Positions 2,743 to 59,995 of a stretch of DNA of 64,000 nucleotides are shown here, one piece after another (positions within the stretch are counted from its first letter, which is position 1; every line of letters begins with the position of its first letter). Both the position numbers and the translations under genes were made by a program. Source of the DNA: a virus; the UHGV virus genome UHGV-0141727; one strand, 5' to 3'. The notes beneath the pieces are model-generated. The model did no database searches. It saw only the letters and a program-made list of their open reading frames with translations, and was not told the DNA's origin.

Positions 2743-2788
2743 ATCATACATTCCTGATTAGAAACATCAATTTAATTTTCTAACACAC
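2743..2788 (-). promoter_or_regulatory. promoter-operator of immI-like module 1
   Basis: Minus strand GTGTGTTAGAAAAT-taaaTTGATGTTTCTAATCA-ggaatg-TATGAT. The -35 is TTGATG (2770-2765), the -10 is TATGAT (2748-2743), spacer 16. The palindromic operator overlaps the -35. Confidence 0.6.
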
Positions 2789-2842: not shown

Positions 2843-3802
2843 TCATCCCCGAAAGCCCTCCGGAATTGACCAGTCTTCCCGGTCAAATTCAGACCGATAG
2901 CCACGCTGTTTCATCTGGTCAAATGCTTCATTGATGGTTGCACATCCCTGGGAACCAGAATAATCCATAGAGAAATCCAGGGCGCTGGATCGTTTGGGCT
3001 TATTCACCGTGGTAGCACTACGTATCCATGCAAATTTTTTTGCCAGTTTTTCAGCGGTACGATACAGAGCCTGCCGTTTTGCGTACCCCTCGTCTGAACG
3101 ACGCTTTGCAGCTCTCGCTTTTGCCGCCGCCAAACAGTGGTTGGTATGTTCTTCCCTGATTACTGTTTTTTTATCCAGCAAGCCATTATCCGCTTGAGAA
3201 CTATCTGCTGGTGAAGCCTTTGGCTGAACCGCGCATGATCTTTCTCTTCTTTTGGCTATAGAGTGACTCTTATTTTCTATTGGCTGTTCATTTTGAACAT
3301 GGGGGGACTTGTTCAATTTGAACAGGGGGTGCCCAGTTTCAAAAAAATAACGAACCTTTGAAATCAACTGCTTAACCAGTTTTGTGGCGTTGGCAAATTT
3401 GATGCCCTGCTTACTCCCTATCTCCATTGCTACATGAATGAAGTGGAGAAATTGTGTTGTAAACCGGTACACGTTACACACCTGAGCATTGTTATTCGCT
3501 ACCTGATGCTGCTTAACAAGCATTCCGCACTTCGTCGCTTCGGTAAATGCCCGGCGCACAGTAGAAATACTGCGTCCTGTAATCTCGGACATATCAGCAT
3601 ATGAGCGACGGATCATGTATTCATCGGTAGCTCCTGCCAGGTTGGCGAACTCGGCAATAATGGCGCTATGTGAAGGGGAAAGAAAACCGCTATGACGAGC
3701 AAAAAAACTCAACTGATGACCTTTGATTTTTTTGTGGTATTCAGTGTTGTTTTTATACTCAGAAGTGTTGAAAGTTACTGGAACTGAATTTAAAATACTC
3801 AT
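2843..3802 (-). CDS. winged-helix DNA-binding protein of unknown role (possible RepL-like initiator or regulator)
   Basis: 319 aa. HTH-like SYADMSEITGRSISTVRRAFTEATKCGMLV with a basic C-terminal half. Lies between two operator sites; own putative promoter with ATAGATTT direct repeats at 3810-3860. Confidence 0.4.
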   Translation of the reverse strand: MSILNSVPVTFNTSEYKNNTEYHKKIKGHQLSFFARHSGFLSPSHSAIIAEFANLAGATDEYMIRRSYADMSEITGRSISTVRRAFTEATKCGMLVKQHQVANNNAQVCNVYRFTTQFLHFIHVAMEIGSKQGIKFANATKLVKQLISKVRYFFETGHPLFKLNKSPHVQNEQPIENKSHSIAKRRERSCAVQPKASPADSSQADNGLLDKKTVIREEHTNHCLAAAKARAAKRRSDEGYAKRQALYRTAEKLAKKFAWIRSATTVNKPKRSSALDFSMDYSGSQGCATINEAFDQMKQRGYRSEFDREDWSIPEGFRG

Positions 3803-3896: not shown

Positions 3897-3970
3897 GCAG
3901 TCGCTACCGGAGCAGTGACCGCGATCCTACTCGATCACGTGCCGTCGGATCAACAGTGTATAAAAACACA

Positions 3971-4004
3971 CTGTGTTAGAAAATTAAGCTAGCTTTTAGC
4001 TCAC
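3971..4004. promoter_or_regulatory. operator site (strong left half, degenerate right half)
   Basis: CTGTGTTAGAAAAT at 3971-3984 is identical to the left arm at 42127-42140. The right half CTTTTAGCTCAC matches the consensus at 7/12. Confidence 0.45.
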
Positions 4005-4999
4005 ATCCTCTTAGACACAAAGATCAGCGGAGTCACCGTCTTGTTCTCTTTCACCGGTATTTCTTGTTGTTTATTGGCTGATATTGGCAGACCATAAGTG
4101 GCATTAGCCCCTAGGGATTCAAGCATCGCTGCGACAATGCGTGCATCATCCTCTGACTGCATACGGCAGAGCGCCCGGCGCTGTTCTGCGCTGATAAAAA
4201 CAGGCATTTCCTGGATAGCATCACGCAAAATACGGCGGCATTTCTTCGCGTTCTCCCCCTGGCTTTCCATCATCGCGGCCTGGTCGCGTAGTTTGTCGCG
4301 AAGCTGCATATTTTCCACTTCAAGATGTATCAGTTCCGATTCCAGAGCTTCACGCTGTGCTGATTCAATCATTGCTTGTTGACTTTGCATTTGTGCAAAG
4401 TGATGAACAATATCTGTAGCCTGATTGTCAGTGAAACCTTGATCCATCAGCGACGTGTGCATAACAGCTTCACGCTCTTCAACGGACTCCATCATCGGTA
4501 TCTGTTTATCGAGGCTGATATAGTTCGGCACGGTAACGTAATCAAATCCATGAAAGGAGTTTACTATTGACACGAAAGAATCAGGTCCAATAGTCGCCCA
4601 TGACCAACCGCCAGCATTTGAGTTGATCAATCCTTGAACAATATGCCCTGTATATGAATCAAGAATTTCTTGGGTGTGCGTAATGACACCATTATCGTCA
4701 ATAGAAATATCAACTGTTCTGTTAGATGGCACATTTTCCAGAAGAAGAGGCTTACCATCCATCATAACAACGCAAACCTCTGGCAAATCTAGTGATTTAG
4801 TTTTGTTGTAATACATCGAGCGGCGACCATGACCGTAATATCCAAATAGCTCACCAAGAGCCATGCGCTCTTTAACTAGCGGTGATGTTATGGTTTTTCG
4901 CACAGCCTCAATAATGTATTTTCGGTTGTTCTGCGGTGTATGTTTGCGGATTTTCTCTACCAGGGAGAAGCGATCCGTAACGGTATTCAGTGATTGCAT
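4001..4999 (-). CDS. putative prohead protease/scaffold (P1 Pro position)
   Basis: 332 aa immediately downstream of the portal gene, with a C-terminal coiled-coil-like region (ELIHLEVENMQLRDKLRDQ). Call rests on position. Confidence 0.45.
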   Translation of the reverse strand: MQSLNTVTDRFSLVEKIRKHTPQNNRKYIIEAVRKTITSPLVKERMALGELFGYYGHGRRSMYYNKTKSLDLPEVCVVMMDGKPLLLENVPSNRTVDISIDDNGVITHTQEILDSYTGHIVQGLINSNAGGWSWATIGPDSFVSIVNSFHGFDYVTVPNYISLDKQIPMMESVEEREAVMHTSLMDQGFTDNQATDIVHHFAQMQSQQAMIESAQREALESELIHLEVENMQLRDKLRDQAAMMESQGENAKKCRRILRDAIQEMPVFISAEQRRALCRMQSEDDARIVAAMLESLGANATYGLPISANKQQEIPVKENKTVTPLIFVSKRM

Positions 5000-25081: not shown

Positions 25082-25330
25082 TTATCCACAGGGTAGATCC
25101 AATAAATAGATCCCAAAGAGAACCAGTAAGATCCAAAGAAGATCCCGGATCGCTGCGAGCCGCGCCATCACTGGCCTAAATGGAGATCAACATTGACTAT
25201 GTGCGATTTAATGTTGACTATGTGCGATTTTATGTTGACTGTACGCGATTTAATGTTGACTATATGCGATATAAACATTGACTGTATGCGATAATTCTCT
25301 CAGCCCTCAGACGGCTGTGGATAAGTATCT
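25082..25330. other. plasmid replication origin, P1 oriR-like
   Basis: Perfect DnaA boxes TTATCCACA at 25082-25090 and (complement) 25316-25324. Five GATC sites at 25097-25151 inside (A/T)AGATCC heptamers. Five iterons at 25190-25292. Confidence 0.75.
25190..25292 (+). repeat. five direct RepA iterons (incC-like), 21-22 bp phasing
   Basis: A(C/T)(A/G)TTGACT(A/G)T(G/A)(T/C)GCGAT at 25190, 25211, 25232, 25253 and 25275. Confidence 0.9.
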
Positions 25331-25372: not shown

Positions 25373-26257
25373 ATGGTAGATGACAAAAAAGGCTTTCTGA
25401 ACGTTGAGGAAATATCAGGGAATACCGGAGAAATCCACAGCTTAAAGCCTAACAATAATAGCACTATTCAGCCGATAGCTTTGTTGCGGCTTGGGGTGTT
25501 TGTTCCCACATTGAAATCTACCAGTGTTGCTTTACGTCGCAAGAACGCCGGTTTAACTAACTCCACTGATGCGACAGAAGAACTGTCCAGCCTGAAGATT
25601 GTAGAGCAGGAAGGGTATCAGGGTATTGAGATTCATGGGCCACGTCTGGATATGGATACTGATTTTAAGGTGTGGATAGGCATTACATCTGCATTGTTTG
25701 ACTATAAACCAGATAATGATGGTGTGATCACCCTGACATTCTCTGAATTTGTGGATCGTTGCGGTTATCCAAGGAAGCGGCTGTCCAAGGCTTTTCGCAA
25801 GAGCATTGGCGACTCTCTAACGCGTATTCAGCAGACGTTGCTGAAGTTCAACTTGCCCACCAGCAAAGAACATGTTCGTTATATCCAGATGAATTTATTG
25901 GCATTTAGTGAACTTGATACTGAAAATGACATTATAAGAATCCAACCGCAGAAGCAGTTGTCTGAGTTGTATTACGTTGACTATAAGCGAATATTGAAGC
26001 TCAAAATGCTCGATAAACTTGGCAGGAAAGAGACAGCCAAGGTGCTTTATACGTTTTTCGAAGCGTTACCTTCAAACCCTGCGCCAGTGAGTATTGAGCG
26101 CCTTCGCGCCAGATTGAACCTCAAATCATCGGTTAGCGTTCAGAACAGTGTGATTCGTAAAGCCATGAAAGACTTGGAAGCTGTTGAATATCTTAAATTT
26201 TCAGAGATAAAGAATGGTCGGAAAATAGGTTTCCAGATCCATAAACGAAATCCATAA
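25373..26257 (+). CDS. repA: plasmid replication initiator RepA (P1 RepA family)
   Basis: 294 aa. TIQPIALLRLGVFVP and GPRLDMDTDFKVWIGI match recalled P1 RepA motifs. Flanked by iterons; AAGGAA SD. Confidence 0.9.
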   Translation: MVDDKKGFLNVEEISGNTGEIHSLKPNNNSTIQPIALLRLGVFVPTLKSTSVALRRKNAGLTNSTDATEELSSLKIVEQEGYQGIEIHGPRLDMDTDFKVWIGITSALFDYKPDNDGVITLTFSEFVDRCGYPRKRLSKAFRKSIGDSLTRIQQTLLKFNLPTSKEHVRYIQMNLLAFSELDTENDIIRIQPQKQLSELYYVDYKRILKLKMLDKLGRKETAKVLYTFFEALPSNPAPVSIERLRARLNLKSSVSVQNSVIRKAMKDLEAVEYLKFSEIKNGRKIGFQIHKRNP

Positions 26258-39600: not shown

Positions 39601-39613
39601 GTTTGATGTTATA

Positions 39614-39637
39614 AAAGCCCCATATGGGGCTTTTCTT
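39614..39637. terminator. bidirectional terminator between the par cassette and dam
   Basis: AAAGCCCC-AUAU-GGGGCUUU with U-rich tails on both strands. Confidence 0.75.
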
Positions 39638-40478
39638 AATTAAGCGTGGCTATAATGTCGTTAGCTATCATTCGCGTTGATGCTTTACAGGATACAGAGC
39701 GACGGGATGGCATAGGATACACCTTGAAGCCATTGCCAACGTAAAGTTCGCGAATGTTAGGCGCTCCACTGTTTGTTATCACAATTTTCGCCCCGCGTCT
39801 GTGAGCATCTACCAGCAGCGACACCAGCCGTTGTTGATCTTCAAACCTAAAGCTATGCCCTGAGTAATTTGTAAATCCGGTAGTGTCGGGCAATGGTTCA
39901 TAGGGGGGATCGCAGAAAATCACATCATCATTCCCGGCAGCCTCAATTACACCAGCAAAATCGCCGGACACAAATTCCGAATACTTTGAAATATCGTCAG
40001 CCAGGAACGCCTCCATTTCCGCGAGAGGGAAGTGGGGTGATTTCTGCTTTCCATATCCGACGTTGAACTCTCCTTTACGGTTATAGCGAGTGACGCCATT
40101 AAAACAATGACGATTGAGATACAGGAACGCCGCTGCATGGTGAAGGGAATCATAAGCACCATTGTTGAATGCATTGCGAACATTCAAAAATGCATCAGCA
40201 GAGTTGTAATCCTGAAAAAAACGATATGCCAGTGTGATAAGAGAATGCCCTTCACGCTGCAATGTCTGATAGAAGTTAATCAGGTCATTATTGATATCGT
40301 TCAGCAGGTTGCTTTTAAATCCGGCATTAGTGAAAACAGCGCCACCTCCAACGAAAGGTTCTATCAACCGTTTTCCGTGGGGCAGGTGTTCGAAGATAAT
40401 GGGCAGTGCAGAAAATTTGCCGCCGACCCACTTAAAGACTGGGCGATCAAATTCGTCCTCCGAGCGAATACGTCGCAT
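39636..40478 (-). CDS. dam: DNA adenine (N6) methyltransferase, Dam family
   Basis: ORF 39636..40670. Conserved core starts at FKWVGGK. Motifs EPFVGGGAVF and DPPYEP. Start at M65 (40478) avoids a 125-nt overlap with the upstream gene. Confidence 0.85.
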   Translation of the reverse strand: MRRIRSEDEFDRPVFKWVGGKFSALPIIFEHLPHGKRLIEPFVGGGAVFTNAGFKSNLLNDINNDLINFYQTLQREGHSLITLAYRFFQDYNSADAFLNVRNAFNNGAYDSLHHAAAFLYLNRHCFNGVTRYNRKGEFNVGYGKQKSPHFPLAEMEAFLADDISKYSEFVSGDFAGVIEAAGNDDVIFCDPPYEPLPDTTGFTNYSGHSFRFEDQQRLVSLLVDAHRRGAKIVITNSGAPNIRELYVGNGFKVYPMPSRRSVSCKASTRMIANDIIATLN

Positions 40479-40545
40479 ATGGCTGATAGTGGCTTCCGCC
40501 GCAGGACGATGATTGTCGCTATAAGAAATAAATTTAGCACCAATA

Positions 40546-41193
40546 TCAGCCACGGATTCCCTCCTTATTTGCTTCAAATACAGCTCTTGCAAAACCGTAA
40601 GGTGTCGCGCTACGAAAATTCGCTCTTTCAGGTCCTGGCGGTGCCTTGTGTATTCGGTTATCTGGATCACCTAACGACTCGTCGATTCGCGGAGTTGGCA
40701 TGATGAATCCTTGTCCGCTCCACAGGCATGTTTTTTTGGTGTAATTGTCTTCCTTGCAATATGCAGTGAAGTGATAAGGATGGAATATGTGGTCAGGTTT
40801 ACGCCAGAATGTCGATATTTGGCTGACCGGGTTTTCAATCATGTACGGGCAACCAATCATCTTTGCAATGTCGTAACACTGCCAGACAACCTGCATTGCT
40901 TTGAACTGGAAAACCGGATCTTTTTTCGCTTTATCTGCGAACCAGCGTGCGCCAGATACAGCCAGGTCAGTACATGGAGGGAAACCGGCTAAAAATACAA
41001 CTCTGTGCAAATTTTTCCGAAGGAAATTGTAGACCTCATCACTGTCAATAATTGCGCTGATACGTGTGAGTACAGCACCTGACTCCATCAATTGGCTGCC
41101 GGACTCCTGGTGTTGCGGATCGACAATGACTGCATCAATGCCGTGTTCCAGCCAGGGGGAAACCATATTCCCTGTATAATCACAAAGACTCAC
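40546..41193 (-). CDS. DNA cytosine-5 methyltransferase-like protein (small, orphan)
   Basis: ORF 40546..41352 overlaps rdgC, so a probable start at GTG 41193 (VSLCDYTG = motif I-like) is preferred. GFPPCTDLAVSG (PC motif), IENP (ENV-like) and RSATPYGFA. Confidence 0.65.
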   Translation of the reverse strand: MSLCDYTGNMVSPWLEHGIDAVIVDPQHQESGSQLMESGAVLTRISAIIDSDEVYNFLRKNLHRVVFLAGFPPCTDLAVSGARWFADKAKKDPVFQFKAMQVVWQCYDIAKMIGCPYMIENPVSQISTFWRKPDHIFHPYHFTAYCKEDNYTKKTCLWSGQGFIMPTPRIDESLGDPDNRIHKAPPGPERANFRSATPYGFARAVFEANKEGIRG

Positions 41194-41209
41194 CGCCAGC
41201 GGTCGGTTA

Positions 41210-42115
41210 TTAATGCTCTGCTTCACCGCCAATGGCCTCCACCAGCGAGCTAAACATCGCGGATAATTCGCTTGTGAACAGAATGAAGTCAGCATCAAAT
41301 CGCTGGGCAACATCTTCACGGTCGATGTCATCGTTCTGGTCATAGAGATCATCGCAAAACGTCAGTGCTTTGATGCTCATGTCATCGTTTAACCTGAAGG
41401 TCGCGCGGTCCTGCCAGTTGATTGCAACTGTTGTTGCAACTTTTCCGGCTTCAATATGAGTCATTATTTCCTCTGACTGTAGGTCTACTTTCTTGCAACG
41501 AACTGCGCCGCCGTCATCGAACAGAGATTTCAATATGGCTTCTTCGCCTGCTTTAAAGCCTTGAGGAAATGTTGACTTGAACCATTCGGTCATAGTCATT
41601 TCGAGCGGTTCTATCGGCGTGAATGGAATCACCGGAAGGCTGCCAAGTGATTTACGTAAGAGCGCCAGCATTTCTTCTGCTTTTCTGGCGCTGGAAGCTT
41701 CTACGAAGACCAGATAGTTGTCGCGATCAATAAGGATTCGCGACAATGATTTGCGAGTGAATGCGCGAGGCAACAAAGAGTGGAGAACTTCATCCTTCAG
41801 GGTGTTTTTTTCCGACTTCTTCAGCTTACGGGATTGCTCATTTTCGAGCTTTTCCACTTTTTTCTGCACTTCCTCCTTAATGACATGAGAGGGCAGGAGC
41901 TTAATTTCTCGCTGTTGCTGGAGAAGTAGAAAACCGTGGTATTCATGGATCAGGTTGTCAGCCAGAACCGGCACCCATCCGACTTTTGCCATTTCTTGTG
42001 ATGCGCATGGAGTGAATGTGAATTGGCTTAAGGCATCACTAACGGTGGTTGAGTCCAGTTTAATTTCGCGGGCAAGGCGATAGACGTATATGTTTTTAAA
42101 TGCGACCAATCTCAT
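41210..42115 (-). CDS. rdgC: recombination-associated protein RdgC
   Basis: 301 aa, collinear with E. coli RdgC (FKNxxVYRL, FTPCxSQxMAKxGWVP, LKDEVLHSLLPRAF, LALLRKSLGSLPV). Confidence 0.9.
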   Translation of the reverse strand: MRLVAFKNIYVYRLAREIKLDSTTVSDALSQFTFTPCASQEMAKVGWVPVLADNLIHEYHGFLLLQQQREIKLLPSHVIKEEVQKKVEKLENEQSRKLKKSEKNTLKDEVLHSLLPRAFTRKSLSRILIDRDNYLVFVEASSARKAEEMLALLRKSLGSLPVIPFTPIEPLEMTMTEWFKSTFPQGFKAGEEAILKSLFDDGGAVRCKKVDLQSEEIMTHIEAGKVATTVAINWQDRATFRLNDDMSIKALTFCDDLYDQNDDIDREDVAQRFDADFILFTSELSAMFSSLVEAIGGEAEH

Positions 42116-42120
42116 ATTTC

Positions 42121-42163
42121 GTAAAACTGTGTTAGAAAATAAAACTCAATTATCTAACACAGT
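42121..42163 (-). promoter_or_regulatory. promoter-operator of the rdgC / C5-MTase / dam operon
   Basis: 38-bp palindrome ACTGTGTTAGAAAAT-N8-ATTATCTAACACAGT (1 mismatch). The -35 is TTGAGT at the centre and the -10-like element is TTTTAC at 42126-42121. ATG at 42115 has no SD. Confidence 0.65.
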
Positions 42164-42174
42164 TTTGTATTTTT

Positions 42175-42852
42175 CTATCCCTTCACAAAGGAGAAATTGC
42201 TCGCTGTTGCTTTTAGCGCGCCACCAGCGTTCAGGGCTATATCACCATCAGCGGCGACGGTTACATTGCTGCCTTTTACATTAACGTCTCCATCGGAGGA
42301 TACATTGGTTTTGCTGCTTGATTTGACGTTAACCTCACCTCCAGCATTAAGCACTATATTCGCCGGGCCGATTATGTAAATCTGGCCGGATTCGTTCATC
42401 CCTATCCTTGATCCTGCGGCGGTGTTTGCTATTTCATAGCCACCGCCAGCCGTTCTGACCTCAAGGATATTGTTTCGGTGAATAACAAAATCTTCAGTCG
42501 CCGAAAACTGGGGGCGGGCAGGAGCACCATCAACTTCTTCTGGCGACCATCCGTTTCCTTGTCCGGAGGCTTCCGGAGGCACATTTGGTACGCCTCCTGG
42601 GGCATCCTGCGCCGCGCCAACGATTAAAGGTCGGCGCGTGTCTATCCTGCCTTTAGCATCCAGATAAGGAAATTCGACCCAGACTAAATCGCCGCTGACT
42701 GTAGGTGTAAAGGCGTTACCGATAGGCATTTGATACTCTGCCCATGGGAGGTCTTCATCCGGTACACCGTTCCAGTCAGGCAGTATGCGGACCTGCGCTC
42801 GCATAAGTCCGGCAGGGTGTTTGGTCCCTACGATTTGCGCTCTGCGTTTCAC
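42175..42852 (-). CDS. baseplate central spike (gpV / Mu gp45-like) with C-terminal beta-helix
   Basis: 225 aa with an OB-fold-like N-terminus (LPWAEY..GDLVWVEFPYLD) and C-terminal repeats NVKSSSKTNVSSDGDVNVKGSNVTVAADGDIALNAGG. Confidence 0.7.
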   Translation of the reverse strand: MKRRAQIVGTKHPAGLMRAQVRILPDWNGVPDEDLPWAEYQMPIGNAFTPTVSGDLVWVEFPYLDAKGRIDTRRPLIVGAAQDAPGGVPNVPPEASGQGNGWSPEEVDGAPARPQFSATEDFVIHRNNILEVRTAGGGYEIANTAAGSRIGMNESGQIYIIGPANIVLNAGGEVNVKSSSKTNVSSDGDVNVKGSNVTVAADGDIALNAGGALKATASNFSFVKG

Positions 42853-53208: not shown

Positions 53209-53256
53209 AATGTACAACGGTGAATTTCACAATTCAACTTAAAATGTTAGAAAACT
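53209..53256 (-). promoter_or_regulatory. promoter of immI-like module 2 with upstream operator half-site
   Basis: Minus strand GTTTTCTAACAT (53255-53244), then 6 nt, then TTGAAT (53237-53232), N17, TACATT (53214-53209). The spacer contains the palindrome GTGAAATTCAC. Confidence 0.5.
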
Positions 53257-53830
53257 AATTTATTAATTCAGTCACCATCTGATACAACGTCATTTCATCG
53301 GCATTGTGCCGCCTGAAATCTGCTTTGCCGCCTATTTTTCCATCAGCATGAACAGGGACCAACCAGGGGTATTGCTCGCGTATCTCTGCTGGCGCTGCGT
53401 GTTGATGGTGCCATTTACACAAAGGGAGAACGTATTTATGCGCGTTCTCTGCCGTTCTCCCGAAGATGTGGTGCAGGGATACCACAGGGCTATGCTGTCC
53501 GTGCATATGGCAGGCAATGCAGGGGAGAGCACCGATGGCAGTTTGTATCCGGCGCTCATCTGCTGTGAGCGTTCTGCCTTTCAGGCCACGTGACGTGCGC
53601 GTTTTTTTGACTGGAGCAGAAGCGGCCTTCTCTTTTCTTCGCTGTTCATATTGCTTCGCTTTTTCAATTTTCTTTTGCCGATATTCAGGCGATGCAGCCT
53701 TTTCTCGCGCACGCTGCTGCTGGCGTTGAGCTTGCTGAAGACGCTTTGCCCTTTGTTCCTCCCGCCATTTCGGATCAGCCAGTTTTTTCAGGGCTTTTTG
53801 CGTCTGTTTCTCCCAATAGCTTTGCTTCAT
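53255..53830 (-). CDS. ref: Ref-like HNH endonuclease (P1 recombination enhancement function)
   Basis: ORF 53255..53872 has a TTG start; ATG 53830 is likelier. Basic disordered N-terminus, then RGLKGRT..ERRI...GALPCIACHMHG...SLHHI.GRT...LPLCKWHHQHAAPAEIREQYPWLVPVHADG, closely matching recalled P1 Ref. Confidence 0.8.
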   Translation of the reverse strand: MKQSYWEKQTQKALKKLADPKWREEQRAKRLQQAQRQQQRAREKAASPEYRQKKIEKAKQYEQRRKEKAASAPVKKTRTSRGLKGRTLTADERRIQTAIGALPCIACHMHGQHSPVVSLHHIFGRTAENAHKYVLPLCKWHHQHAAPAEIREQYPWLVPVHADGKIGGKADFRRHNADEMTLYQMVTELIN

Positions 53831-53873: not shown

Positions 53874-53920
53874 TGTGTTAGAAAATCAAAATTGATTTTC
53901 TAACACAAAATGAAGATACT
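53874..53920. promoter_or_regulatory. best-conserved promoter-operator (divergent: ref / plus-strand early operon)
   Basis: Perfect 15-bp arms TGTGTTAGAAAATCA-aaat-TGATTTTCTAACACA at 53874-53907. Plus-strand promoter is TTGATT (53892-97), N17, GATACT (53915-20). Confidence 0.7.
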
Positions 53921-54101
53921 TTTTTCGGACGCTATATCAGGAGGTCATGATGCTTGTCGCAATAAGTGCAATCCACCAGCAATCCGGTACAGAAATTGGG
54001 TTGCTATATGCCCTGTTTTTCACTGTCCTGGCGTTGTTTGAGCTGGGTATTGAACTCTTTGCTCTCATTAACTTTTGCGTAACGTTCCTGGGGAAACTTT
54101 G

Positions 54102-54713
54102 ATGGCTATACGCATTATGAAAATTTACATCGCGGGTCCGATGACTGGTTATCCCGACTACAACCGCACAGCGTTTTTTTCGAAAGCAAAAGAGCTGATG
54201 GAGGAAGGGCATATTGTTCTGAATCCGGCGCTGTTACCTGCTGGCCTCTGCCAGAGCGAATACATGGATATTTGCCTTGCTATGGTGCGTTCGGCTAATG
54301 CGGTCTATTTGCTCAAGGGGTGGGAGGAATCAGTTGGCGCTCGTGCAGAGCACGAGCTGGCTCAAAAGCTGGGGCTGAATGTAATTTATGAGTCACCAAC
54401 CAACATTGAATGCCAGGTTGCTCCGCATATTTACCGGGAACTGGTCAATGCACTGCGTGATATCGCTGCTGTATATCACGGCACAGAACAGCTTCGTGAG
54501 CGTTTAGCCCATACCATTTCCTATTACCTGTCTGCATCTCATGAGCACAAGCTCCGTCAGAAGGTAATGATCAAATTTATCATGAGGTTATCGAAATCCC
54601 TGGCAAACGCCGATCCAAAGAATCCATTACCGAAAGTGGCAATGAATTACCTGAAGTCCTGCAACATTGTTTCTGAAGATGGCGTTCTTTTGGTTAGAAG
54701 GAGTTCTGCGTGA
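54102..54713 (+). CDS. DUF4406 / nucleoside 2-deoxyribosyltransferase-like protein with C-terminal extension
   Basis: ORF 54075..54713. MKIYIAGPMTGYPDYNRTAF...VLNPA...W(E)ES.GA..E matches the DUF4406 signature. Start at 54102 or 54117. Confidence 0.65.
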   Translation: MAIRIMKIYIAGPMTGYPDYNRTAFFSKAKELMEEGHIVLNPALLPAGLCQSEYMDICLAMVRSANAVYLLKGWEESVGARAEHELAQKLGLNVIYESPTNIECQVAPHIYRELVNALRDIAAVYHGTEQLRERLAHTISYYLSASHEHKLRQKVMIKFIMRLSKSLANADPKNPLPKVAMNYLKSCNIVSEDGVLLVRRSSA

Positions 54714-58895: not shown

Positions 58896-58926
58896 TCCTG
58901 AACACATCGTTTATGCACTCAAAATG

Positions 58927-58966
58927 ATGTTAGAATATTGATTTTAATTTTCTAACAGATTATTTT
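58927..58966 (+). promoter_or_regulatory. promoter-operator of the 59000+ operon
   Basis: ATGTTAGAATAT-N8-ATTTTCTAACAG. The -35 is TTGATT (58938-43), N17, TATTTT (58961-66). Confidence 0.6.
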
Positions 58967-58999: not shown

Positions 59000-59995
59000 A
59001 TGAGTGCAATAATCACACCTCATTTCGTAAACGGAGCTGGTGTGGCTGTCTTTCCGGTAGACAAGCCCACCAGTAACTACATTGGCGCAGGTCGCCGTTT
59101 CATTATCTCTCCACTTCCGCGTGAACAGGCTGAAAACACGCCAGATGGCGTAGTGGATCTGAATTATTCGCTGGTTGCCAACCAGTCTCTGAAACCGTTT
59201 TTTCAAAGCGAGCGCGTATTTAACGCGTTGGGCGGTGAAGATTCGCTTGTTCATTGGGTAAGTTCCAATATCCACGATTGCCAGGCGCACGATAAGCGCG
59301 ATTGCAGCCACCAGCTAACCACTCATTTCTATAACGGCTCTGCCGTTCGCCTGTGCTGGAAGCATGATGCGGAATACATGATGAAGGGGTACAGCAAGCT
59401 GGACGACCAGTTATCCCTGAATCGTGCCAACTGGGTTATGAACTGGGCTGCGAGCGAGTTAAAACTACCGCCAGAACGCGATCTGAGCATGGTTGAACTC
59501 ACTTTTTGGGCCATTCGCCGAAATCTTAAAGACGAGCTGCCAGATGAAGCCGGTCGCATTGCATTTTGTCAGCCAAAACAGGAAATCCCTACCGGCACAC
59601 TGAAAGAATCGGATATCACCTGGGAGCACAGCACCCGTGAGCTGGTGGACATAACCGCAGAGCAGATCGTCAACCTGTCTGTAGATGAGGATTCCGGCCT
59701 GCTGTATATGCGCCGACCAAAAGCGGTTCTCGGTAAAAGCCCGACTTATCTCCGGTTTGTGATTTCTCGTCCGTGCATCGGATGCGGTGGCAAAGTTAAT
59801 CACCCGTTCATGTACCGCGCCCGCTCGTTAAACGAACACGATCGCTGGGCCGTTCCTCTTTGCGATGAATGCGCCAGAAGCGCAGAAAACGATGTCCGTG
59901 CATGGGAAAAAGCACATGGCATACGCCTTTACGTAGCCGCTAACCAGCTTTTCGACTTCGCCATCGAGCGCGGAGTGATCACGTTCAATAACTGA
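59000..59995 (+). CDS. hypothetical protein with C-terminal Cys-cluster (DUF968-like?)
   Basis: 331 aa. C-terminal CIGCGG...H...PLCDEC suggests a zinc/HNH-like module. Family assignment from memory only. Confidence 0.35.
   Translation: MSAIITPHFVNGAGVAVFPVDKPTSNYIGAGRRFIISPLPREQAENTPDGVVDLNYSLVANQSLKPFFQSERVFNALGGEDSLVHWVSSNIHDCQAHDKRDCSHQLTTHFYNGSAVRLCWKHDAEYMMKGYSKLDDQLSLNRANWVMNWAASELKLPPERDLSMVELTFWAIRRNLKDELPDEAGRIAFCQPKQEIPTGTLKESDITWEHSTRELVDITAEQIVNLSVDEDSGLLYMRRPKAVLGKSPTYLRFVISRPCIGCGGKVNHPFMYRARSLNEHDRWAVPLCDECARSAENDVRAWEKAHGIRLYVAANQLFDFAIERGVITFNN

What the first reader, a model, noticed from the sequence alone, without database searches (positions are those of the whole stretch)
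39636..42163. Operator-controlled rdgC / C5-MTase-like / Dam operon, with Ref under a sister operator
A single palindromic promoter-operator (42121-42163) precedes three genes.
- rdgC, whose product inhibits RecA.
- A small cytosine-5-MTase-like gene with GFPPC and IENP motifs.
- A Dam-family MTase with a DPPY motif.

The two MTase ORFs overlap by 125 nt in different frames. P1 has a fused Dam/Dcm-type Dmt protein, so a recent split or fusion is conceivable.

The Ref-like RecA-dependent HNH nuclease (53255-53830) is controlled by the best operator copy. The element therefore places a RecA antagonist, a RecA-dependent nuclease and two orphan methylases (anti-restriction, origin methylation) under one repressor.
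Basis: partly seen in the sequence, partly recalled or inferred. Interest (0 to 1): 0.55.

Follow-up and report, generated by a model that had tools for sequence, protein, structure and literature searches.

The report
Repressor-controlled rdgC-dcm-dam prophage operon
This is the D6-like plasmid-prophage counterpart of phage P1's repressor-controlled early operon (an RdgC homologue plus a cytosine and an adenine DNA methylase); it is real but largely ordinary, and the reported 125-base gene overlap comes from taking the longest ORF.

Summary
The window is a D6-like (P1-related) E. coli phage-plasmid, 99.8% identical to pEC361_3. The palindrome, the three genes and the Ref gene are all present.

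- **Operator.** TGTGTTAGAAAAT-N8-ATTTTCTAACACA recurs with identical geometry upstream of rdgC, ref and a pdcB-like gene. Weaker copies sit at the repL and icd/ant positions. This matches a P1 C1-type regulon.
- **Known precedent.** P1 already has an annotated C1 operator and promoter (Odmt/Pdmt) driving uhr-hrdC-dmt, and a C1 operator (Oref) at ref.
- **Gene overlap.** The 125-nt overlap is an ORF-calling artefact. Dam starts at GTG 40553 behind an AAGGAGG site, giving an 8-nt overlap that is conserved in D6.
- **The small gene.** It starts at GTG 41226 and has no Pfam or NCBIfam hit. It belongs to a very large phage family (PHROG 757). One member, phage K42 Dcm, the retron Ec86 trigger, was shown to make 5mC; its four mutated residues are conserved here.
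- **Relation to P1 Dmt.** The small protein shows no detectable sequence similarity to P1 Dmt's C5 domain. Sibling plasmids carry a fused P1-type dmt at this position, so the difference is a cassette exchange, not a split.

Verdict: a new member of a known kind, of low to moderate interest.

The parts
42172..42177 (-). candidate -35 hexamer TAGAAA of the rdgC promoter; overlaps the TAG stop of the upstream baseplate gene
   Evidence: Consensus scan TAGAAA-17-GATAAT, 9 of 12 matches. The GGATAGAAAA context is conserved in all lineage variants.
42149..42154 (-). candidate -10 hexamer GATAAT, embedded in the upstream operator half-site
   Evidence: The rdgC-side half-site is TGTGTTAGATAAT in all 14 distinct variants retrieved, while the other arm reads GAAAAT in 13 and GATAAT in one (L024).
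42128..42161 (.). bivalent operator core, TGTGTTAGAAAAT-N8-ATTATCTAACACA; the palindrome extends to 42123-42166
   Evidence: It is conserved at the same position in D6 and in 21 IMG/VR contigs upstream of rdgC homologues.
41210..42115 (-). rdgC (P1 hrdC homologue), 301 aa
   Evidence: Pfam PF04381 at 1e-100; NCBIfam NF001462 scores 375.6 against a cut-off of 330; 51% identical to P1 HrdC.
40546..41226 (-). small C5-cytosine-methylase-like gene (phage 'Dcm', PHROG 757), 226 aa. GTG start overlaps rdgC by 17 nt. Too short to hold a canonical target-recognition domain (inferred from length, not measured).
39636..40553 (-). dam, orphan N6-adenine DNA methylase, 305 aa. GTG start behind AAGGAGG; 8-nt overlap with the dcm stop.
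   Evidence: PF02086 at 2e-53, TIGR00571 at 231.6 bits; 69% identical to P1 Dmt residues 471-753; best PADLOC model is 'orphan methyltransferase'; start conserved in D6.
39613..39634 (-). intrinsic terminator hairpin AAAAGCCCC-ATAT-GGGGCTTTT directly after the dam stop
   Evidence: RNA fold gives -14.6 kcal/mol; sequence.
53874..53907 (.). best operator copy (0+0 mismatches), in the 117-bp divergent region between ref and a + strand early operon
   Evidence: Three IMG/VR contigs have the same site upstream of ref homologues.
53255..53830 (-). ref, RecA-dependent HNH nuclease homologue, 191 aa
   Evidence: PF16786 at 5e-36; PHROG 2321 at 2e-81; 54% identical to P1 Ref.
58926..58959 (.). third bivalent operator copy, upstream of a DUF968 (P1 pdcB-like) gene at 59000-59995
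   Evidence: The orthologous D6 site at 80707-80740 precedes orf98, annotated 'similar to P1 pdcB'.
3972..4005 (.). operator with one perfect and one degenerate half-site, upstream of the repL homologue (2843-3802, - strand)
   Evidence: repL identified from pEC361_3 and D6 annotation.
2754..2787 (.). operator with one perfect half-site (2775-2787) and a weaker partner, upstream of the icd/antirepressor-type operon
   Evidence: The equivalent sites in pEC361_3 (79049) and D6 (21245) lie upstream of icd.

Best explanation
This is the D6-lineage orthologue of phage P1's C1-repressed early operon Odmt/Pdmt-uhr-hrdC-dmt.

**In the plasmid prophage.** A C1-family repressor, encoded outside the window, is inferred to bind two inverted 13-bp half-sites (TGTGTTAGAAAAT). 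These cover the -10 hexamer and the start region of a sigma-70 promoter 25-60 bp upstream of rdgC, keeping the operon off.

**On induction or infection.** One transcript, ended by the hairpin at 39613-39634, is translated into three proteins through coupled overlapping starts (17 nt and 8 nt):
- an RdgC-family DNA-binding protein that presumably modulates RecA-dependent recombination;
- a small, stand-alone C5 cytosine methylase of the phage 'Dcm' family;
- a Dam-type GATC adenine methylase.

The two methylases would mark rapidly replicating phage DNA. This could give protection from restriction and, by analogy with P1, Dam-dependent steps such as pac processing.

Ref and other early functions (repL, icd/ant, a pdcB-like operon) carry the same operator type, so they belong to the same regulon.

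**What is shown and what is inferred.** Shown here: gene identities, start positions, operator recurrence and conservation, and the cassette relationship to P1-type dmt. Inferred: repressor binding, promoter use, methylation specificities and the RdgC effect on RecA.
For: - **Element identity:**
- **Operator statistics and geometry:**
- **Operator conservation:** found at the orthologous place in D6 (74% DNA identity overall) and in 21 IMG/VR contigs, with divergent spacer and flanks but invariant half-sites.
- **Regulon pattern:** the same motif lies at ref, repL, icd/ant and pdcB-like genes in the window, pEC361_3 and D6, plus a half-site just upstream of D6 c1.
- **Repressor:** the D6-type repressor is a distant homologue of P1 C1 (21% identity over 241 aa, E 1e-7), and the D6 authors annotate it as such.
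- **P1 precedent:** the P1 record annotates Odmt/Pdmt-uhr-hrdC-dmt and Oref-ref. dmt and ref are C1-controlled lytic genes (PMC4713147).
- **Protein families:**
- **Small Dcm:**
- **Starts and coupling:**
- **Terminator:**
Against: - No experiment shows repressor binding, and the repressor gene is absent from the window.
- The promoter match is modest (9 of 12), and only one promoter-like site was found in the region against 4.3 expected, so it carries little statistical weight alone.
- rdgC has no obvious Shine-Dalgarno sequence.
- No terminator separates the upstream late baseplate gene from rdgC, so the operon may also be read late, independently of the operator.
- The small protein fails Pfam PF00145. 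At 226 aa it is too short to hold a canonical target-recognition domain; I infer this from its length, not from an alignment.
- In the K42 paper the CCWGG specificity was assumed from host Dcm and supported only by msDNA mutants.
- P1 HrdC has never been characterised. The RecA-antagonist role is extrapolated from E. coli RdgC (my own knowledge).
Confidence: 0.8

Rival explanations
1. The palindrome upstream of rdgC works mainly as a nucleic-acid hairpin. It could be a processing, stabilising or attenuating structure on read-through transcripts from the upstream late baseplate operon, or a cruciform. On this view it is not, or not only, a repressor-binding site.
For: - In four sequence-distinct lineage variants the complementarity extends 5-7 bp beyond the 13-bp half-sites. 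The changes compensate: CAAAA/GTTTT, TAACC/ATTGG, TTACC/AATGG, and AACTT/TTGGA with one G-T.
- The ref operator shows no such extension.
- Predicted RNA hairpins are -18 to -25 kcal/mol.
- No terminator lies between the baseplate gene and rdgC, so late transcripts would contain the whole hairpin.
Against: - The invariant part is the 13-bp half-site, which recurs at other early promoters as bivalent or single sites without extended stems. That is the pattern of a protein-binding site.
- D6-type variants have no U-tract after the stem.
- Transcripts started at the embedded -10 would carry only the 3' arm.
- Templated quasi-palindrome correction could maintain symmetry neutrally.
- Only four independent variants were seen, and there is no Rfam family.
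Confidence: 0.2
2. The small ORF is not a sequence-specific DNA C5 methylase in this element. It could be inactive, act on another substrate (ssDNA, RNA or a nucleotide), or need Dam or another partner for targeting.
For: - No Pfam or NCBIfam hit, and no PDB sequence relative.
- At 226 aa there is no room for a canonical target-recognition domain (inferred from length).
- Motif I is LCDYTG instead of FxGxG.
- It is translationally coupled to Dam, and in P1 and sibling plasmids a C5 domain is physically fused to Dam.
- The only demonstrated substrate of a family member is the stem-loop of single-stranded msDNA.
Against: - The K42 homologue raised 5mC in msDNA in vivo, and a quadruple mutant (C82A/E128A/K175A/K176A) abolished this. 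All four residues are conserved here as C85, E131, K164 and K165.
- PC and ENP follow strands beta4 and beta5 in the model, as in canonical C5 MTases.
- In the four phage loci inspected (aaroes, KP36, Vibrio 1.189.O, A73) no adjacent gene is annotated as dam, so a Dam partner is not general.
- About 75 columns are invariant across 30 homologues, which indicates purifying selection.
Confidence: 0.2
3. One reading: the two methylase ORFs are the product of a recent frameshift split of a P1-type fused Dmt, or its immediate precursor.
For: - The gene order rdgC, C5-type MTase, Dam is the same as P1 hrdC then dmt, where Dmt has an N-terminal C5 domain and a C-terminal Dam domain.
- The Dam part is 69% identical to the P1 Dmt C-terminus.
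Against: - The small protein has no BLASTP or hhalign similarity to the P1 Dmt N-terminal PF00145 domain.
- It is a full-length member of an independent family that is usually stand-alone.
- Sibling plasmids pRHBSTW-00605_3 and the NZ_CP099353.1 plasmid have an entire 762-aa P1-type dmt instead. Similarity to the window (99% in rdgC, 94% in dam) stops abruptly at window 41209 and resumes at 40458.
- The Dam start and its ribosome-binding site are conserved between lineages.
Confidence: 0.03

Closest known systems
Phage P1 Odmt (Op68)/Pdmt - uhr - hrdC - dmt operon (NC_005856, 65145-68676)
   Same: A C1-type operator overlaps a sigma-70 promoter. It is followed by an RdgC homologue (51% identical) and then C5-type plus Dam-type methylase functions in the same order. 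The Dam domain is 69% identical. The operon is expressed as a C1-controlled lytic function.
   Different: - P1's operator is a single asymmetric 17-mer at the -35. Here it is a 34-bp bivalent palindrome over the -10 and start region, with a different sequence; only the TCTAAnAnA core is shared.
- There is no uhr gene here.
- P1's C5 part is a canonical PF00145 domain fused to Dam. Here an unrelated-in-sequence 226-aa protein is encoded separately.
Phage D6 orf65-orf64-orf63 (MF356679; Gilcrease and Casjens 2018)
   Same: Same three genes, same 17-nt and 8-nt overlaps, and the same palindromic site between baseplate gene 5 and rdgC. The genes are already annotated as an RdgC-family protein, a putative DNA-cytosine methylase and a DNA-adenine methylase.
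   Different: About 74% DNA identity (the small protein is 84% identical). D6 has glnS inserted downstream of dam, and the window does not. No operators are annotated in the D6 record. I could not read the D6 paper to see whether they are described there.
Phage K42 (KarlJaspers-like) Dcm, trigger of retron Ec86 (bioRxiv 10.1101/2023.08.16.553469)
   Same: The same small-protein family. The link is indirect, through the 236-aa aaroes protein (37% identity, E 3e-42), which has the same 711-bp gene length and carries C82/E128/K175/K176 at the positions the paper mutated. The corresponding window residues are C85, E131, K164 and K165. K42 Dcm was shown to raise 5mC in msDNA.
   Different: That gene stands alone in a virulent Drexlerviridae phage. 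Here it sits in a repressor-controlled operon of a plasmid prophage, coupled to rdgC and dam. Specificity and any retron-triggering ability are untested for this protein.
Phage P1 Oref - ref
   Same: A Ref homologue (54% identical) lies directly downstream of a repressor operator of the phage's own type.
   Different: P1's Oref is monovalent and sits between the -35 and -10 of P2ref. Here a perfect bivalent palindrome lies in a divergent intergenic region, and its centre supplies TTGATT on both strands.

Membership tests
P1-type C1-controlled dmt operon | The phage repressor's operator overlaps the operon promoter | tested here: inconclusive
   The motif recurs at orthologous C1-controlled positions and is conserved across lineages. 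It overlaps the only promoter-like site. Binding itself cannot be tested with these tools.
P1-type C1-controlled dmt operon | hrdC (RdgC-family) gene directly upstream of the methylase gene(s) | tested here: met
   PF04381 at 1e-100; 51% identical to P1 HrdC.
P1-type C1-controlled dmt operon | Single bifunctional Dmt: a PF00145 C5 domain fused to a Dam domain | tested here: not met
   There are two genes. The C5-like protein has no PF00145 hit and no similarity to the P1 Dmt N-terminus. The Dam part is orthologous.
P1-type C1-controlled dmt operon | uhr gene at the head of the operon | tested here: not met
   Only 59 bp separate the baseplate gene stop from the rdgC ATG.
Canonical C5 cytosine DNA methyltransferase (Pfam PF00145) | Significant match to the family profile | tested here: not met
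   No Pfam or NCBIfam hit at E 0.01. A profile search of PDB sequences found nothing.
Canonical C5 cytosine DNA methyltransferase (Pfam PF00145) | Catalytic Pro-Cys (motif IV) after beta4 and Glu-Asn-x (motif VI) after beta5, on a class I MTase fold | tested here: met
Canonical C5 cytosine DNA methyltransferase (Pfam PF00145) | Target-recognition domain between motifs VIII and IX | tested here: inconclusive
Small phage Dcm family (PHROG 757; K42 Dcm) | Full-length sequence homology | tested here: met
   PHROG 757 at 3e-78 over residues 3-223. 37% identity, E 3e-42, to the aaroes 236-aa protein.
Small phage Dcm family (PHROG 757; K42 Dcm) | Residues whose mutation abolished activity (C82, E128, K175, K176) | tested here: met
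   They align with C85, E131, K164 and K165. C85, E131 and K164 are invariant in A1, and K165 is at least 90% conserved.
Small phage Dcm family (PHROG 757; K42 Dcm) | 5-methylcytosine formation in DNA | not testable with these tools
   Needs a methylome or LC-MS measurement.
Dam family N6-adenine DNA methyltransferase (TIGR00571 / PF02086) | Profile match above the curated cut-off, plus the DPPY catalytic motif and an FxGxG AdoMet loop | tested here: met
   231.6 bits against a cut-off of 114.85. FCDPPYEP and EPFVGGGAVF are present.
Dam family N6-adenine DNA methyltransferase (TIGR00571 / PF02086) | GATC specificity | not testable with these tools
   Inferred from 69% identity to the P1 Dmt Dam domain, which is annotated as methylating GATC.
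Ref family RecA-dependent HNH nuclease (PF16786) | Profile match and similarity to P1 Ref | tested here: met
   5e-36, 123 bits against a cut-off of 26.9; 54% identical to P1 Ref.

The most novel reading that the evidence does not exclude
The C5-methylase slot between rdgC and dam may be an exchangeable cassette. It is filled either by a small stand-alone Dcm or by a canonical C5 domain fused to Dam. That would imply selection for co-delivery of 5mC and 6mA activities, possibly as a physical Dcm-Dam pair. Two further ideas go with it. C1 repression of this operon may keep a retron-Ec86-type trigger silent in lysogens. The rdgC operator may double as a covarying RNA/DNA hairpin that gates read-through from the late baseplate operon.
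Probability: 0.12. Interest if true: 0.45.

Novelty: new member of a known kind. Interest (0 to 1): 0.22.

Why it matters
The main value is in correcting and placing the finding.
- The operon is the D6-lineage version of a textbook P1 regulon.
- The unusual 125-nt overlap disappears once the conserved start is used.
- The "hypothetical protein" that PGAP annotates between rdgC and dam, with a start that removes its conserved N-terminal motif, can be named as a member of the experimentally supported small phage Dcm family.

Two modest points go beyond annotation.
- Closely related plasmid prophages swap a small stand-alone Dcm for a fused P1-type C5-Dam enzyme at precise breakpoints.
- About 100 sequenced E. 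coli, Salmonella and Shigella phage-plasmids carry a homologue of a known retron Ec86 trigger. In the lineages examined it sits behind the repressor operator.

Neither point changes current understanding.

Tried and rejected
- **Sequence routes for the small protein.** Pfam, NCBIfam and PADLOC scans gave nothing. A profile search against PDB sequences gave only noise, ornithine decarboxylase at E 0.25. Foldseek against PDB was weak, best 4e-4 to DNMT3A. The afdb50 library was unavailable.
- **Homology to the P1 Dmt N-terminus.** BLASTP and hhalign were both negative, so the split/fusion idea was rejected.
- **Repressor in the window.** tblastn found no hit.
- **Dam as a general partner of the small Dcm.** Rejected, because in the four phage loci inspected (aaroes, KP36, Vibrio phage 1.189.O, A73) no adjacent gene is annotated as dam.
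- **Terminator role for the palindrome.** Considered and not adopted, because D6-type variants have no U-tract.
- **Rfam.** Only a sub-threshold mir-8 hairpin match, which I dismissed.
- **Papers I could not read.** The P1 genome paper (PMC523184) and the D6 paper (PMC5800970) are not held. I could not check whether D6-type operators have already been published.
- **Structure-pair counting.** MAFFT put a gap in the operator alignment A2, so the count of structure pairs could not be used in register. Pairing was counted directly instead.
Full report
**What the element is.** The 2.9-kb region is 99.8% identical to E. coli plasmid pEC361_3 (NZ_AP027414.1). It is 74% identical to phage D6, a P1-related plasmid prophage. 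A further 111 plasmid records of Escherichia, Salmonella and Shigella also match. The annotation of pEC361_3 and D6 shows the usual P1-like gene set: tail, baseplate, head, repL, icd/ant, ref, phd/doc, cre-like, pacAB, and a repressor "similar to P1 C1". The window is largely collinear with pEC361_3 but does not include the repressor gene.

**Checking the observation.**
- The palindrome is real. Its arms are 42123-42140 and 42149-42166, 18 nt each, 94% complementary and 8 nt apart.
- The geometry TGTTAGA-N16-TCTAACA occurs three times in the window, at 42130, 53876 and 58928, and never in 100 shuffles.
- The three − strand genes are real. rdgC (41210-42115) matches Pfam RdgC at 1e-100 and passes an NCBIfam RdgC equivalog cut-off.
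- The last gene is a Dam-family enzyme (PF02086 at 2e-53, TIGR00571 at 232 bits) with FCDPPYEP.
- The middle ORF has GFPPC and IENP.
- Ref (53255-53830) matches PF16786 and is 54% identical to P1 Ref.

**The 125-nt overlap is an artefact.** It arises from taking the longest ORFs.
- Dam begins at GTG 40553, 6 nt after AAGGAGG, and overlaps the upstream stop by 8 nt.
- D6 and its relatives have an ATG at exactly the same place behind AAGGGGG.
- The peptide encoded by the upstream "extension" is not conserved between lineages. That is expected, because this DNA encodes the C-terminus of the preceding gene in another frame.
- PGAP and the D6 authors both annotate this start.

**Start of the middle gene.** The likely start is GTG 41226. 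It lies 9 nt after GGAGG and overlaps rdgC by 17 nt, as annotated in D6. An alignment of 30 homologues shows an invariant N-terminal LCDxTGxMxxPW motif. PGAP's shorter call in pEC361_3 (621 nt) starts at the Met inside that motif and cuts off most of it. The operon is therefore tightly translationally coupled. It ends in a −14.6 kcal/mol hairpin, AAAAGCCCC-ATAT-GGGGCTTTT, at 39613-39634.

**The operator and its regulon.**
- The unit is a 13-bp half-site, TGTGTTAGAAAAT. Bivalent sites (two inverted half-sites, 8-bp spacer, 34 bp in total) lie upstream of rdgC (0+1 mismatches), between ref and a divergent early operon (0+0), and upstream of a DUF968/pdcB-like gene (3+1).
- Sites with one perfect half lie upstream of the repL and icd/ant homologues.
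- pEC361_3 and D6 have the motif at the same orthologous positions. D6 has about a dozen further single half-sites, including one just upstream of its c1 gene.
- Upstream of rdgC, the half-sites are invariant in the window, D6, six other plasmids and 21 IMG/VR contigs, while the spacer and flanks differ.
- The rdgC-side half-site always reads GATAAT. With TAGAAA 17 bp upstream, this is the only promoter-like site in the region. A repressor bound there would cover the −10 and the start point.
- The D6-type repressor is a distant homologue of P1 C1 (21% identity over 241 aa, E 1e-7).
- Binding was not tested, so repressor control remains an inference. It follows the P1 pattern closely.

**Comparison with P1.** The P1 record annotates a C1 operator Odmt (former Op68) abutting promoter Pdmt, followed by uhr, hrdC and dmt. 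It also annotates a C1 operator Oref at ref. Ronayne et al. list dmt, ssb, kilA, ban and ref as C1-controlled genes induced in the lytic cycle (PMC4713147). So the arrangement "RdgC homologue, methylases and Ref under one repressor" is the known P1 arrangement. The window's RdgC is 51% identical to P1 HrdC, and its Dam is 69% identical to P1 Dmt residues 471-753. Three things differ here: there is no uhr, the operator is bivalent and placed over the −10 instead of being monovalent at the −35, and the C5 component is of a different kind.

**The small protein.**
- It has no Pfam, NCBIfam, PADLOC or PDB-sequence match.
- It matches PHROG 757, "DNA methyltransferase", at 3e-78.
- It has more than 7,600 homologues, typically about 215-230 aa among the 120 listed. 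None of those listed carries a Pfam domain.
- tblastn finds relatives in 1,588 phage records: Drexlerviridae, Vequintavirinae and others.
- An AlphaFold model (pLDDT 86) is a Rossmann-type methyltransferase fold. FPPC follows β4 and ENP follows β5.
- The decisive evidence comes from the literature. A 711-bp dcm gene of Drexlerviridae phage K42 triggers retron Ec86 and raised 5mC in msDNA. A C82A/E128A/K175A/K176A mutant was inactive.
- The 236-aa protein of phage aaroes, also encoded by a 711-bp gene, has exactly these residues at these positions. It aligns with the window protein at 37% identity (E 3e-42), matching C85, E131, K164 and K165.
Sequence specificity remains unknown; the CCWGG site in the paper was assumed from host Dcm and supported by msDNA mutants.

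**Not a split of P1 Dmt.** P1 Dmt's N-terminal half is a canonical PF00145 domain. The small protein shows no BLASTP or profile similarity to it. Two E. marmotae plasmids are very close to the window (98.8% identity through rdgC, 94% through most of dam). They carry a complete 762-aa P1-type fused dmt that starts at the same GTG. Similarity to the window stops at 41209 and resumes at 40458. The inserted C5 segment is 89% identical in DNA to P1 dmt. The two architectures are thus alternative cassettes exchanged by recombination in the flanking rdgC and dam sequences. About 98 plasmid records carry the small version at 60% identity or more, and in the listed rows it lies beside rdgC. In the four phage loci I inspected the small gene stands alone, with no adjacent gene annotated as dam.

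**How it most likely works.**
- In the prophage, the C1-type repressor occupies the bivalent operator and blocks the promoter.
- On induction or infection, the tricistronic mRNA yields RdgC, Dcm and Dam.
- By analogy with E. coli RdgC, which inhibits RecA in vitro (my own knowledge), the phage RdgC may temper RecA activity.
- The methylases mark replicating phage DNA.
- Ref, repL, the antirepressor operon and a pdcB-like operon are switched on by the same event.
- Because no terminator separates the late baseplate gene from rdgC, late read-through is also possible.

**One unexplained detail.** At the rdgC site, and not at the ref site, the palindrome extends 5-7 bp beyond the half-sites in all four lineage variants, with compensating substitutions. 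This could reflect an RNA or DNA hairpin function, or neutral templated correction of a quasi-palindrome. I rank it as a minor rival or additional function.

**Verdict.** The features are real and correctly identified in outline. Two specific claims fail: the 125-nt overlap, and the split or fusion of a P1-type Dmt. The system is a new member of a well-known kind. Interest is low to moderate. The added value is the family assignment of the small Dcm, the cassette exchange with fused dmt, and the definition of the D6-type operator.

Noticed in passing
window 25083-25290 (upstream of repB, 25373-26257): A plasmid origin laid out like P1 oriR. It has a DnaA box TTATCCACA, six GATC sites within 90 nt (mostly as AGATCC repeats), then five iterons of about 22 bp (ACATTGACTATGTGCGAT...), followed by a RepB-family initiator gene. 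It is a likely target of Dam methylation.
   Followed up: partly
window 42123-42127 and 42162-42166; the same positions in L001, L013, L027 and L044: The rdgC operator palindrome extends 5-7 bp beyond the conserved half-sites in four lineage variants, with compensating changes (CAAAA/GTTTT, TAACC/ATTGG, TTACC/AATGG, AACTT/TTGGA). The ref operator has no such extension.
   Followed up: partly
L044 437-2725 (NZ_CP056699.1) and L017 537-2950 (NZ_CP099353.1); breakpoints at window 41209 and 40458: Sibling E. marmotae plasmids replace the small dcm and the first 32 or so codons of dam with a P1-type fused C5+Dam dmt (762 aa). In L017 this gene is broken by a frameshift.
   Followed up: yes
L002 5045-5665 (pEC361_3), corresponding to window 40546-41166: PGAP calls the small dcm gene as a 206-aa hypothetical protein starting at an internal ATG. 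That start lies inside the invariant N-terminal LCDxTGxM motif and cuts off most of it. The D6-style GTG start (window 41226) fits the homologue alignment better.
   Followed up: yes
window 53884-53921: The centre of the ref operator (AATCAAAATTGATT) reads TTGATT on both strands. On the + strand it lies 17 nt upstream of GATACT. A ribosome-binding site and a 51-aa hydrophobic ORF (53948-54103) follow and head the divergent early operon. One operator may therefore repress two divergent promoters.
   Followed up: partly
L001 2278-3939 (D6 orf62); also L013, L014 and L015: D6 and several relatives carry a glutaminyl-tRNA synthetase gene (glnS) between the parA-like genes and dam. The window and pEC361_3 have only about 135 bp there.
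   Followed up: no
L008 2510-3871 (Vibrio phage 1.189.O): A 41%-identical homologue of the small Dcm lies immediately upstream of ninB and a gene annotated as a recombination-enhancement RecA-dependent nuclease. This is a second, unrelated phage in which this Dcm family and a Ref-like gene are neighbours.
   Followed up: no
window 3923-4022: Four GATC sites lie within 100 bp, around the operator upstream of the repL (lytic replication) homologue.
   Followed up: no
L012 (CP042620.1), dam region: The dam reading frame is interrupted in this D6-type plasmid; it is open only from about nt 1883 of the operon. This is either a pseudogene or an assembly error.
   Followed up: no
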